A DNA stretch of 64,000 nucleotides from assembly GCF_988243305.1 (NCBI RefSeq), contig NZ_OZ547136.1, one strand, 5' to 3'. Positions 50,673 to 55,535 of the stretch are shown in pieces. Numbering within the stretch: position 1 is the first letter of the stretch; each line of letters opens with the position of its first letter. The translations under genes and the position numbers were made by a program. The notes under the pieces were generated by a model. The model did no database searches. It had not been told where the DNA came from and saw only the letters and a program-made list of their open reading frames with translations.

Positions 50673-51056
50673 ATGAAGCTGACCATCATTCGATTAGAAA
50701 ACTTTAGCGACCAGGACCGGATTGACCTGCAAAAGATCTGGCCGGAGTATTCCCCTTCCTCTTTACAGGTTGACGATAACCACCGTATCTACGCCGCGCG
50801 TTTTAACGAGCGCCTCCTAGCGGCCGTGCGGGTAACCTTAAGCGGCACCGAGGGGGCACTGGATTCTCTACGTGTGCGGGAAGTCACCCGCCGTCGCGGT
50901 GTGGGGCAATATCTGCTGGAAGAGGTTTTGCGTACCAATCCTGGCGTTTTAGGCTGGTGGATGGCGGATGCTGGCGTGGAAGATCGCGGTGTGATGACGG
51001 CGTTTATGCAGGCGCTGGGGTTTACGGCACAACAGGGCGGCTGGGAGAAGCGTTAA
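50673..51056 (+). CDS. panM: PanD maturation factor PanM (PanZ), GNAT fold
   Basis: 127-aa ORF MKLTIIRLENFSDQDRIDLQKIWPEY. Confidence 0.85.
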   Translation: MKLTIIRLENFSDQDRIDLQKIWPEYSPSSLQVDDNHRIYAARFNERLLAAVRVTLSGTEGALDSLRVREVTRRRGVGQYLLEEVLRTNPGVLGWWMADAGVEDRGVMTAFMQALGFTAQQGGWEKR

Positions 51057-51580
51057 TCGCTCTGTGTAAAAAGCAGTTCAATGGATTTGGTTGGGAAAAA
51101 TAACGCATTTTCGTTTTCTCCGACCAGCGGGATAAAGCCCAGCGACTGATAAAACGTATGGGCTTTTTCATTCAGCGCCTCGACAAAAAGACCGTGAATA
51201 CCTACCGCTAAAGAGGCTGACCAGACGACTTTCATGGCATGAGCAACCAGTGTTGCTCCCCATCCCTGTCCCTGTAATGAACGATCAATTGCCAGACGCC
51301 CAAGAGTGACGCTGGGAATATTTTTGTAGGGAATTTTTTTCTGTTTCGATTTCGAGGGCAATGCGGCTCGTTCAAAACAACTGCCGGATAATGTGTAATA
51401 TCCCAGGACCTGACGTTCTGGAGTGTTGCGACAAAGGATATACGCTCGCAGAATTTTATTGCGATGTTGACGAATCAGATGTGCCGTCAGAAAGAGATTT
51501 AACGCTTCCTCGCCGCAGTCGAATCGCTGTAGATCATAATCTGCATCATCGGTCAGAATCTCTATCGTCAGATCATCCAT
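51053..51580 (-). CDS. GNAT-family acetyltransferase toxin (TacT/AtaT/ItaT-like)
   Basis: 175-aa ORF with an acetyl-CoA-binding-like QGQGWGATLV motif, immediately downstream of a small RHH-type ORF. Confidence 0.7.
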   Translation of the reverse strand: MDDLTIEILTDDADYDLQRFDCGEEALNLFLTAHLIRQHRNKILRAYILCRNTPERQVLGYYTLSGSCFERAALPSKSKQKKIPYKNIPSVTLGRLAIDRSLQGQGWGATLVAHAMKVVWSASLAVGIHGLFVEALNEKAHTFYQSLGFIPLVGENENALFFPTKSIELLFTQSD

Positions 51581-51586
51581 AAATGA

Positions 51587-51853
51587 TTACATTCCCTGAA
51601 GACGTTTTGTCGCACGTTTTAGCTTTTCACCTGGCGACGGTGGATTACTCAGCGCATCCATCACCCGCGTCCAGGATTCCTCATTGAGGATCACCCGCCG
51701 ATGCTGTTCAATCACTTCCGCAGCCCGCTGCGAAGCGCTGTTCAACATAAATTGGCTGACGGACTGATTAGATATCGCTGCCGCTTCCTCAATCATACTT
51801 TTGTCATCGTCAGTTAAACGCAGATCGATACGCTGCTTTTTAACAGCAGACAT
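51587..51853 (-). CDS. DUF1778-like RHH antitoxin (TacA/AtaR-like)
   Basis: 88-aa ORF MSAVKKQRIDLRLTDDDKSMIEEAAAISNQSVSQFML, ribbon-helix-helix-like N-terminus; 6 bp upstream of the GNAT gene. Confidence 0.7.
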   Translation of the reverse strand: MSAVKKQRIDLRLTDDDKSMIEEAAAISNQSVSQFMLNSASQRAAEVIEQHRRVILNEESWTRVMDALSNPPSPGEKLKRATKRLQGM

Positions 51854-53106: not shown

Positions 53107-53321
53107 CCTGAGGTTCCCCATTCTTCTGGTTATTACGTGTGTTGTGATGTTGTTGTTCAGCACTTTATTTCGTTTTATGCATAACTACCCGTGCTTTAGC
53201 AGCATACTCTGCTAAAACATACCCGATTTTTATGATATTGGAATAGCTATTTTGACAGTTTATTAACAATCTGCGTGGGGATTGGCGTTTTGCCGGAGGG
53301 GGAAACTGATTATTGCAGAGG

Positions 53322-53357
53322 CCCAAAAAACAAAAACCCCGGATTCTCATCCAGGGT
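53322..53357 (-). terminator. rho-independent terminator after rpoH
   Basis: Minus strand reads ccctggatgagaatccgggg followed by tttttgtttttt, about 20 bp after the rpoH stop. Confidence 0.7.
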
Positions 53358-53377
53358 TCTCTGCTAAGTAGCGGAAA

Positions 53378-54232
53378 TTACGCTTCAATGGCAGCGCGAA
53401 GTTTTTTCATCGCGTTCTTTTCCAGCTGGCGCACACGCTCAGCGGAAACACCGTAACGGTCAGCCAGTTCCTGCAACGTGGACTTGTTGTCTTCGTCCAG
53501 CCAGCGCGCGCGGATGATATCCTGGCTACGCTCGTCCAGACCTTGCATCGCGTCGGTCAGACGGTTTGCCGCCTGCTCTTCCCAGTTATCATCTTCAATG
53601 CCGTCAGCAAAGTTAGATGATTTATCCTGCAGATAGAGCACCGGAGCCATCGGCTGGCTATCGGAATCGTCGTCGGAAGACAGGTCAAAGGTCATGTCCT
53701 GTGCCGCCATACGCGATTCCATCTCAAGTACGTCTTTGCTGGTTACGCCCAGTTCACGGGCCACCATTTCGACTTCATCCTGGTTAAACCAGCCCAGACG
53801 CTGCTTGGTTTTACGCAGGTTGAAGAACAGTTTGCGCTGCGCTTTGGTGGTCGCAACTTTGACGATACGCCAGTTACGCAGAACGTATTCGTGGATCTCT
53901 GCTTTGATCCAGTGGACGGCGAAGGAGACCAGGCGCACACCCACTTCCGGGTTAAAACGGCGCACTGCTTTCATCAGGCCGATGTTACCTTCCTGAATCA
54001 AATCCGCCTGTGGCAGGCCATAGCCCGCATAATTACGAGCAATATGAACAACAAACCGCAGGTGAGACAGGATCAGCGTTTTAGCTGCTTCCAGATCGCC
54101 ATGGTAATGCAGCTTTTCAGCCAGCGCCCGCTCCTCGTCAGCCGACAACATCGGCCACGCGTTAGCTGCCCGGATGTAAGAATCCAGGTTGCCAACTGGG
54201 GCTAAAGCTAAACTTTGCATTTTGTCAGTCAT
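53378..54232 (-). CDS. rpoH: RNA polymerase sigma-32 (heat-shock sigma factor) RpoH
   Basis: 284-aa [32 protein letters not shown]. Confidence 0.95.
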
Positions 54233-54325
54233 TCAAATCCTCTCAATCGATATCTTCTGGCGCTTCAGTGGTAGCAACAACTGTGCCAGAGCTTAAGAGC
54301 AACGAGGTTATCATTCACTGTTTTA

Positions 54326-54352
54326 TCAGACCGTGATTTTATCCACAAGTTC
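54326..54352 (-). promoter_or_regulatory. sigma-E (sigma-24) dependent promoter of rpoH
   Basis: Minus strand reads GAACTT-N16-TCTGA (plus strand tcaga ... aagttc), about 90 bp upstream of the rpoH start. Confidence 0.75.
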
Positions 54353-54476
54353 AATGCAAGCTTGTGAATAAATTACGCACAAAATGTGACATAGAGATGA
54401 AATACCGGGAAGAGACAACGGGGTCTCTTTCCCTGCTACGGAACCCATTGCAGGGAAAGAGTATAACACGCTTTTA

Positions 54477-55535
54477 TTATTCAGGCGTAAAGTGGCGTAA
54501 ATGTTGTACCGTGGCAAGCCACGCTGCCACCCAGCCAATCATCGAGCATACCAGCAGCAACAGCAGGCATTCATCGAACGATAAGCCATTGATATCAAAC
54601 TTCGTTCCGAAAACCTGTGCCACTTCTGCAACCGCCGATGACAAACGCAGTACCAGAATTTCTGACAAAATTAATGACAGCAATGCGCCAGAAAATCCCA
54701 GCAATGCGCCTCCGTACAGGAACGGGCGCAGGATGAAACCATCCGTCGCACCAATCAGTTTTTGTACGTTAATGGAGTCACGGCGAGCAAAGATGCTCAG
54801 ACGCACACTGTTGCCGATGACGAGGAACACTGCTGCCACCATCAACACGCCGATCATCGCGGAAACGCGCCCGACCAGCCCGGTCAACGCCGCCAGACGG
54901 GCAAACCAGCTGTCATCCATCCGCACTTCGTCAATGCCGTTGATCTGGGTGATACGATCACGCAGCGTATTCAGTGATTCCGTCCCCTGAAAATCGAGTT
55001 TCGGGATCACCACCGCCACTGCCGGAAGCGGGTTTTCTTCCAGCATATCCAGCGCGCCGCCAAAACCAGACCAGTTACGGAACTCGCCCAGCGCGTCTTC
55101 ACGAGAAAGATAGTTCACTTTCTCTACGCCCTGCTCGGCCTGTAGCTGTGCCACCACGCCCGCAGCGGCGTCATCGTCCAGCGTTTTTTGCAGATAAACA
55201 GTGATTTGCGGTGACGGATAATACTGCGTCGCCGCCTGGTTAACGTTTTTGTACACCATATAACAGACGCTGGGCAGCGTCAGGGAGATGGCGATAACCA
55301 TCACCGTTAAAAACGTGGCGAACGGTTTGCTTTTCAGATCCTGCAATGCGCCGTGGAAGGCATAGCGCACCTGTTCGTTGAAAACGTTGGTTTTGCGATT
55401 TACCGGTTTTGGCGAGGATTTCGCGCGTTTCGGTGCGTTACGACCGCCGTCGCCTGAGCCGCCGACCGATTTACGGAAGCGATCCAGACGCCCGCCAAAC
55501 TGCCGAATATGATTGATTGCATCGCGCTTATTCAT
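54477..55535 (-). CDS. ftsX: cell division ABC-transporter-like permease FtsX
   Basis: ORF 54477..55562; start trimmed to [15 protein letters not shown] giving 352 aa. Confidence 0.9.

What the first reader, a model, noticed from the sequence alone, without database searches (positions are those of the whole stretch)
54326..54352. Sigma-E promoter upstream of rpoH
GAACTT-N16-TCTGA on the rpoH strand matches the sigma-E consensus and the known envelope-stress input to sigma-32 synthesis.
Basis: partly seen in the sequence, partly recalled or inferred. Interest (0 to 1): 0.2.

Follow-up and report, generated by a model that had tools for sequence, protein, structure and literature searches.

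The report
Known sigma-E promoter rpoH P3

Summary
GAACTT (54352..54347), 16 bases, TCTGA (54330..54326) lies on the minus strand, 94 bases upstream of the rpoH start codon (ATG at 54232). It occurs once in 64 kb, against 0.01 expected by chance. The window is E. coli, and the whole ftsX-rpoH intergenic region is 100% identical to K-12 MG1655. The site is therefore rpoH P3, the promoter through which sigma-E was discovered and the standard sigma-E reporter (rpoHP3-lacZ). Published ChIP-chip places a sigma-E peak over it. A supplement note on a "T-34G" change in rpoHP3 places +1 at the A at 54319, seven bases after TCTGA, giving an 87-nt leader. The elements are invariant in the sampled E. coli variants, Enterobacter and Citrobacter. 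A sigma-E-type motif lies sense-strand upstream of rpoH in 39 of 80 gamma- and beta-proteobacterial loci, against 1 of 80 on the antisense strand. A perfect DnaA box (TTATCCACA, 54339..54347) covers the last base of the -35 and the first eight of the spacer, and a sigma-70 promoter overlaps. Novelty: already known. Interest is low.

The parts
54347..54352 (-). -35 element GAACTT of rpoH P3. With the upstream T it reads TGAACTT, 6 of 7 matches to the consensus GGAACTT.
   Evidence: Sequence. Consensus GGAACTT from PMC1312014. GAACTT named as the rpoH P3 -35 in PMC6435447. Invariant in E. coli variants, Enterobacter and Citrobacter.
54331..54346 (-). 16-nt spacer GTGGATAAAATCACGG
   Evidence: Sequence. 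A 16-nt spacer is strongly preferred by sigma-E promoters. The spacer is identical in Enterobacter and Citrobacter except for one G>T just before GTCTGA.
54326..54330 (-). -10 element TCTGA (extended form GGTCTGA, 54332..54326; consensus cGGTCAAA)
   Evidence: Sequence. -10 motif T/CGGTCAAAA in PMC1312014. The TC core is conserved in related rpoH loci.
54319..54319 (-). Inferred P3 transcription start (A). It follows a 6-nt discriminator TAAAAC and gives an 87-nt leader (54319..54233).
   Evidence: Inference. The 'T-34G' mutation of rpoHP3 (PMC3817407 supplement) fits the T at 54353, next to GAACTT, which gives +1 = 54319. A 5/6-nt discriminator and an A/G start are typical. I could not obtain direct TSS data for P3.
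54339..54347 (+). Perfect DnaA box TTATCCACA. It overlaps the last base of the -35 hexamer and the first 8 nt of the spacer.
   Evidence: Repression of rpoH P3/P4 by DnaA is from my own knowledge (Wang and Kaguni 1989), not from a paper read here.
54363..54371 (-). Second DnaA box TTATTCACA, 11 nt upstream of the -35 and in the opposite orientation to the first.
   Evidence: There are 5 matches to TTATNCACA in the window against 2.1 expected, and two of them lie 16 nt apart here.
54320..54348 (-). Candidate overlapping sigma-70 promoter (P4): TTGTGG-N17-TAAAAC
   Evidence: The presence of an overlapping sigma-70 promoter is stated in the PMC3817407 supplement. The hexamer assignment is my own inference from the sequence.
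54274..54288 (-). Sigma-54-type element TGGCAC-N5-TTGC in the P3 leader (candidate P6)
   Evidence: 2 matches in the window against 0.25 expected. A sigma-54 ChIP peak, SigN_208, covers the region. The P6 identity is from my own knowledge (Janaszak et al. 2007).
54453..54465 (-). Distal sigma-70 promoter P1: -10 TATACT (54465..54460), +1 at 54453 (-221 from the ATG)
   Evidence: PMC2760140 supplement: rpoH TSS at -221, -10 box gcgtGTTATACTcttt, listed as a known sigma-70 promoter.
53378..54232 (-). rpoH coding sequence (sigma-32, 284 aa), the gene P3 drives
   Evidence: RefSeq annotation of an identical region.
53332..53361 (-). rpoH intrinsic terminator-like hairpin followed by a T-run

Best explanation
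The site is rpoH P3, the sigma-E (RpoE, ECF group 02) dependent promoter of the heat-shock sigma factor gene. When envelope stress, extreme heat or ppGpp raises free sigma-E, the sigma-E holoenzyme binds the promoter. Domain 4 contacts the -35 TGAACTT, and domain 2 contacts the -10 GGTCTGA sixteen bases downstream. The holoenzyme melts the -10 and starts at the A at 54319, producing an rpoH mRNA with an 87-nt leader. This keeps sigma-32 synthesis going when sigma-70 promoters fail, and it couples the periplasmic and cytoplasmic stress responses. Steps shown (literature on an identical K-12 sequence): sigma-E dependence in vivo and in vitro, and sigma-E occupancy. Steps shown here: the motif, its uniqueness, and its conservation. 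Steps inferred: the exact +1, the DnaA box over the -35/spacer junction acting as a repressor site, and the overlapping sigma-70 P4 sharing the same DNA.
For: The motif is exact and unique, with 0.01 expected by chance. It is the top-scoring site in the window with an independent matrix. The intergenic region is 100% identical to MG1655 and is present in 5425 of 5426 complete E. coli genomes. Literature: sigma-E was discovered through rpoH P3; the GAACTT -35 is that of rpoH P3; E-sigmaE transcribes rpoHP3 in vitro and Bordetella SigE does the same. rpoHP3-lacZ activity falls when RseA/RseB are overexpressed, and the fusion serves as the standard sigma-E reporter. The sigma-E ChIP-chip peak SigE_39 spans 3598793-3599393 in U00096.2 coordinates, and the motif maps to 3598900-3598926. 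Conservation: the -35 and -10 are invariant in divergent E. coli, Enterobacter and Citrobacter. GAAC[TC][TC]-N15-17-TCNNA occurs sense-strand within 350 nt upstream of rpoH in 32 of 80 proteobacterial loci. The controls give 1 of 80 antisense, 0 of 80 in the coding region, and 0.9 in shuffles. With a consensus score, 39 of 80 sense against 1 of 80 antisense reach the threshold, including 22 of 44 loci that have no CIRCE element.
Against: I could not retrieve a nucleotide-resolution start-site measurement for P3. The TSS supplements searched were either cut when stored or listed only P1. The +1 therefore rests on an inference from a mutation name and on typical spacing. The -10 TCTGA departs from the modern consensus TCAAA at two positions. 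The -35 lacks the first G of GGAACTT. The ChIP-chip peak is 600 bp wide and cannot separate P3 from neighbouring promoters. The conversion between MG1655 versions (1977 bp) uses the version-2 length from memory.
Confidence: 0.97

Rival explanations
1. The DNA at these coordinates is constrained mainly as a DnaA operator plus the sigma-70 promoter P4, and the sigma-E-like hexamers are incidental.
For: A perfect DnaA box covers the last base of the -35 hexamer and the first eight of the spacer, and a second box lies 16 nt away. The spacer is almost fully conserved in Enterobacter and Citrobacter, more than sigma-E alone would require. An overlapping sigma-70 promoter is stated for rpoHP3. A sigma-70 ChIP peak covers the region.
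Against: In more distant rpoH loci the spacer and the DnaA box are not kept, but the GGAACTT and TC-core elements and their 16-17 nt spacing are. Sigma-E dependence of the isolated promoter is shown in vitro and in vivo. The two functions overlap and do not exclude each other.
Confidence: 0.02
2. This is a chance match to a short degenerate consensus with no promoter function.
For: Only 11 bases are specified. A relaxed version of the pattern finds 3 sites in the window against about 6 expected in shuffles, so loose sigma-E patterns alone carry little information.
Against: The exact pattern is expected 0.01 times. It lies in the right intergenic region, on the right strand and at the right distance from rpoH. 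It is conserved across genera and classes. It is identical to the experimentally defined K-12 promoter.
Confidence: 0.01

Closest known systems
E. coli K-12 rpoH P3 (rpoHp3), sigma-E dependent
   Same: The whole ftsX-rpoH intergenic region (244 nt) is 100% identical. It has the same -35 GAACTT, the same 16-nt spacer and the same -10 TCTGA. It is the same promoter.
   Different: Nothing in the promoter differs. The strain of the window is not K-12: for example, it carries a GNAT/TacA toxin-antitoxin pair between panM and livJ, where strain VCSW7 has only about 200 bp.
Other E. coli sigma-E promoters (degP/htrA, rpoE P2, micA; consensus GGAACTT-N16-TCAAA)
   Same: They share the -35 GAACTT, the preferred 16-nt spacer, a 5/6-nt discriminator, and moderately A/T-rich DNA upstream. 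In this window 20 of the 30 nt upstream of the -35 are A/T.
   Different: The -10 is TCTGA rather than TCAAA. The first G of GGAACTT is a T. This promoter is overlapped by DnaA boxes and a sigma-70 promoter.
Sigma-E/AlgU/SigE-type promoters upstream of rpoH in other proteobacteria (e.g. the Bordetella fam promoter, Shewanella rpoH)
   Same: The architecture and position upstream of rpoH are the same. Examples are Shewanella GAACTTTTGTTCACTTGCAATGTCTAT (PMC4336711; also locus L016), Bordetella fam (locus L076), and Pseudomonas loci L025, L031 and L036.
   Different: The spacer sequences are unrelated and there is no DnaA box. In many beta-proteobacteria and non-enteric gamma-proteobacteria the -10 is embedded in a CIRCE inverted repeat, the HrcA operator, which is absent from E. 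coli.

Membership tests
Sigma-E (RpoE, ECF02) dependent promoter | -35 element matching GGAACTT | tested here: met
   TGAACTT at 54353..54347, 6 of 7 matches. Consensus from PMC1312014.
Sigma-E (RpoE, ECF02) dependent promoter | -10 element with an invariant TC core (GGTCAAA / TCTGA type) | tested here: met
   GGTCTGA at 54332..54326. GGTC and the final A match, and two positions differ from TCAAA.
Sigma-E (RpoE, ECF02) dependent promoter | Spacer of 15-19 nt between the -35 and -10, with 16 strongly preferred | tested here: met
   Exactly 16 nt. Preference stated in PMC1312014.
Sigma-E (RpoE, ECF02) dependent promoter | Purine start 5-6 nt after the -10 | tested here: inconclusive
   An A lies at 54319 after the 6-nt discriminator TAAAAC, and this agrees with the T-34G naming. 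No start-site measurement for P3 could be retrieved.
Sigma-E (RpoE, ECF02) dependent promoter | Transcription depends on sigma-E in vivo and in vitro | not testable with these tools
   Reported for the identical K-12 sequence: in vitro transcription with E-sigmaE, and the rpoHP3-lacZ fusion responding to RseA/RseB overexpression and used as the sigma-E reporter, including in delta-rpoE strains.
Sigma-E (RpoE, ECF02) dependent promoter | Sigma-E occupancy in cells | not testable with these tools
   Published ChIP-chip peak SigE_39 (3598793-3599393, U00096.2) covers the mapped position 3598900-3598926. The resolution is about 600 bp.
Sigma-E (RpoE, ECF02) dependent promoter | Conservation of the elements upstream of orthologous genes | tested here: met
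   The elements are invariant in E. coli variants, Enterobacter and Citrobacter. 32 of 80 (regex) or 39 of 80 (score) rpoH loci carry the motif on the sense strand, against 1 of 80 antisense.
rpoH P3 of E. coli K-12 | Sequence identity with the K-12 ftsX-rpoH intergenic region | tested here: met
   244 of 244 identical to NC_000913.3.

The most novel reading that the evidence does not exclude
The most novel reading left open concerns gating of P3. Its almost fully conserved spacer, holding a perfect DnaA box, together with the overlapping sigma-70 promoter, may make P3 a three-input switch (envelope stress, replication status, growth) whose inputs interact in a way not yet described. The CIRCE-embedded version in other proteobacteria would then be an analogous gate using HrcA instead of DnaA. 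Each element is individually known. Only a new quantitative interplay would be new.
Probability: 0.03. Interest if true: 0.3.

Novelty: already known. Interest (0 to 1): 0.06.

Why it matters
P3 is the link by which envelope stress raises the cytoplasmic heat-shock response, and it is the standard reporter of sigma-E activity. Confirming it here shows that the first-stage reader can recognise a real alternative-sigma promoter from sequence alone. It adds no new biology.

Tried and rejected
- **Start-site data for P3.** Thomason 2015 is not held. The Kim 2012 supplements gave no hit. Mendoza-Vargas 2009 lists only P1, at -221.
- **Primary papers.** Ramirez-Santos 2001 and Wang and Kaguni 1989 are not held. 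The DnaA-repression and enteric-conservation statements therefore rest on my own memory plus my own alignments.
- **Full-text search for the 27-mer.** It found nothing.
- **Rhodius 2006.** The promoter tables and supplements are not held as text.
- **Built-in sigma-70 scan.** It found none of the known rpoH promoters. It is too strict to be informative here.
- **Rfam scan of 53200..54700.** No family at E <= 1.
- **Relaxed sigma-E regex.** It is not enriched in the window as a whole: 3 sites against about 6 expected. Only the strict pattern, its position and its conservation carry weight.
- **CIRCE caveat.** In loci with a CIRCE element the TC of the inverted repeat can itself score as a -10. 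I therefore recounted without those loci and found 22 of 44 still positive.

Full report
**Observation**

On the minus strand the window reads ...GCATT GAACTT GTGGATAAAATCACGG TCTGA TAAAAC A GTGAATG....
- GAACTT occupies 54352..54347.
- The spacer is 16 nt (54346..54331).
- TCTGA occupies 54330..54326.

These are exactly the coordinates given. The pattern GAACTT-N16-TCTGA occurs once in the 64-kb window on both strands. Dinucleotide-preserving shuffles give 0.01 matches. The site is on the same strand as a 284-aa ORF at 53378..54232. RefSeq annotates the identical DNA as rpoH, flanked by ftsX upstream and livJ downstream.

**Origin of the window**

The ftsX-rpoH region is 100% identical to E. 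coli strain VCSW7. It is present in 5425 of 5426 complete E. coli genomes. The 244-nt intergenic region is identical at every base to K-12 MG1655 (NC_000913.3). Everything established experimentally for the K-12 rpoH promoter region therefore applies to this sequence. The mapping is MG1655 version 3 coordinate = window coordinate + 3,546,551.

**What the site is**

It is rpoH P3.
- Sigma-E was first identified by its ability to transcribe rpoH from its third promoter at lethal temperature (PMC8103513).
- Sigma-E recognises the -35 GAACTT of the htrA, rpoH P3 and rpoE P2 promoters (PMC6435447).
- Purified E-sigmaE, and a holoenzyme with Bordetella SigE, transcribe an isolated rpoHP3 template in vitro (PMC3490749).
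- The rpoHP3-lacZ fusion is the standard sigma-E reporter. Its activity falls when RseA/RseB are overexpressed (PMC2215328).
- GAACTT occurs once on the rpoH strand of this intergenic region, so the assignment is unambiguous.

The Rhodius et al. promoter model gives GGAACTT for the -35 and T/CGGTCAAAA for the -10. It gives a spacer of 15-19 nt with 16 strongly preferred, a 5/6-nt discriminator, and A/T-rich DNA upstream (PMC1312014). The site has TGAACTT, GGTCTGA and a 16-nt spacer. An A follows six bases after the -10. Of the 30 bases upstream of the -35, 20 are A/T (read).

**Occupancy and start site**

Cho et al. ChIP-chip lists a sigma-E binding region, SigE_39, at 3598793-3599393 in U00096.2 coordinates. 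RNAP, sigma-70, sigma-54 and sigma-S regions lie over the same stretch (PMC3923258 supplement). I converted between genome versions with the 1977-bp difference. The version-3 length is confirmed; the version-2 length is from memory. On that basis the motif lies at 3598900-3598926, inside the peak.

I could not retrieve a nucleotide-resolution start for P3. The supplement of Rhodius et al. [quoted passage not shown] The T next to GAACTT is 54353. That places +1 at the A at 54319, seven bases after TCTGA, and gives an 87-nt leader. This is an inference.

**Test by conservation**

I fetched 80 rpoH loci from gamma- and beta-proteobacterial genomes. I then scanned the 350 nt upstream of each start.
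- The pattern GAAC[TC][TC]-N15-17-TCNNA is present on the sense strand in 32 of 80 loci.
- The controls give 1 of 80 on the antisense strand, 0 of 80 in the coding region, and a mean of 0.9 in shuffles.
- With a consensus score requiring the AAC and TC cores, 39 of 80 sense regions reach 9 or more, against 1 of 80 antisense regions.
- A matrix built from the non-enteric hits alone ranks the window's site first of about 128,000 positions.

Within Enterobacteriaceae, divergent E. coli, Enterobacter sp. and Citrobacter werkmanii keep both elements. They also keep the whole spacer apart from one G>T. The two other genera have the fuller GGAACTT. Acerihabitans keeps GAACTA-N16-TCTCA. The insect-symbiont Pantoea genomes have lost recognisable similarity.

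**Surroundings**

- **DnaA boxes.** A perfect box, TTATCCACA (54339..54347, plus strand), overlaps the last base of the -35 hexamer and the first 8 nt of the spacer. A second box, TTATTCACA (54371..54363, minus strand), lies just upstream. This fits the DnaA repression of rpoH P3/P4 reported by Wang and Kaguni (1989), which I cite from memory. It also explains why the spacer is conserved beyond what sigma-E needs.
- **Overlapping sigma-70 promoter (P4).** Its existence is stated. TTGTGG-N17-TAAAAC is my own candidate for its hexamers.
- **P1.** The distal sigma-70 promoter starts at -221 (54453), with -10 TATACT (PMC2760140 supplement).
- **Sigma-54 element.** TGGCAC-N5-TTGC lies at 54288..54274, under a sigma-54 ChIP region.
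- **Rfam.** No family matches.

**Mechanism**

Envelope stress frees sigma-E. The sigma-E holoenzyme binds the -35 and -10 of P3 and initiates at about 54319. The resulting rpoH mRNA raises sigma-32 synthesis. This links the periplasmic and cytoplasmic stress responses and sustains rpoH transcription at temperatures where sigma-70 is inactive. Sigma-E dependence and occupancy are shown in the literature for the identical sequence. The motif, its uniqueness and its conservation are shown here. The exact +1 and the DnaA gating are inferred.

**Rivals**

A chance match is excluded by position, statistics, conservation and identity with the experimentally defined promoter. The idea that the DNA is really a DnaA operator and sigma-70 P4 with an incidental sigma-E motif does not hold either. 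In distant taxa the spacer and DnaA box are not kept, but the sigma-E elements and their spacing are. The functions overlap and do not compete.

**Verdict**

The feature is already known and is in fact the founding example of its class. Interest is low.

Noticed in passing
Related loci, e.g. L029, L035, L049, L056, L061, L066, L067, L069, L076 (50-160 nt upstream of rpoH): 36 of 80 rpoH loci, all beta-proteobacteria or non-enteric gamma-proteobacteria, carry a CIRCE-type inverted repeat TTAGCACTC-N9-GAGTGCTAA upstream of rpoH. In many of them the sigma-E-type -10 (TCNNA) lies inside the left arm, with GGAACTT at the proper distance upstream. An HrcA operator would then sit directly on a sigma-E promoter. 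E. coli has neither. CIRCE upstream of rpoH has been noted in comparative genomics (Permina and Gelfand 2003, from memory). I did not find the overlap with the sigma-E -10 discussed in the papers read.
   Followed up: partly
window 51053..51853, minus strand: There is a two-gene toxin-antitoxin-like pair between panM and livJ: an 88-aa TacA-type antitoxin (Pfam PF08681, E = 3e-25) followed by a 175-aa GNAT acetyltransferase. Strain VCSW7 has only about 200 bp between livJ and panM, so this is a strain-variable insertion. It resembles the AtaR/AtaT module of E. coli O157:H7; that comparison is from memory and was not tested.
   Followed up: partly
window 54411..54457, minus strand: Two adjacent hairpins lie at the very start of the P1 transcript, just after the ftsX stop codon: CCCUGC...GCAGGG and AGAGAC...GUCUCU. 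The fold gives -24.3 kcal/mol, z = -3.3 against shuffles, and no U-run follows. They could be an ftsYEX 3'-end stabiliser or terminator, or a P1-leader structure. This was not resolved.
   Followed up: partly
window 54274..54288, minus strand: A sigma-54-type element TGGCAC-N5-TTGC lies inside the P3 leader, under a published sigma-54 ChIP region. It is probably the reported rpoH P6 (from memory). One divergent E. coli (DCE7) has a 9-nt insertion directly after it.
   Followed up: partly
window 60809 (minus strand) and 37688 (plus strand): These are the second- and third-best scores of the sigma-E matrix in the window: GAACTTTTTCGCCCGTCGCGCGCTCCAC at 14.6 bits and GAACTTTGACAAAATCCGGGTCGCCAA at 12.4 bits. 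Their gene context was not checked, and they may be chance matches.
   Followed up: no
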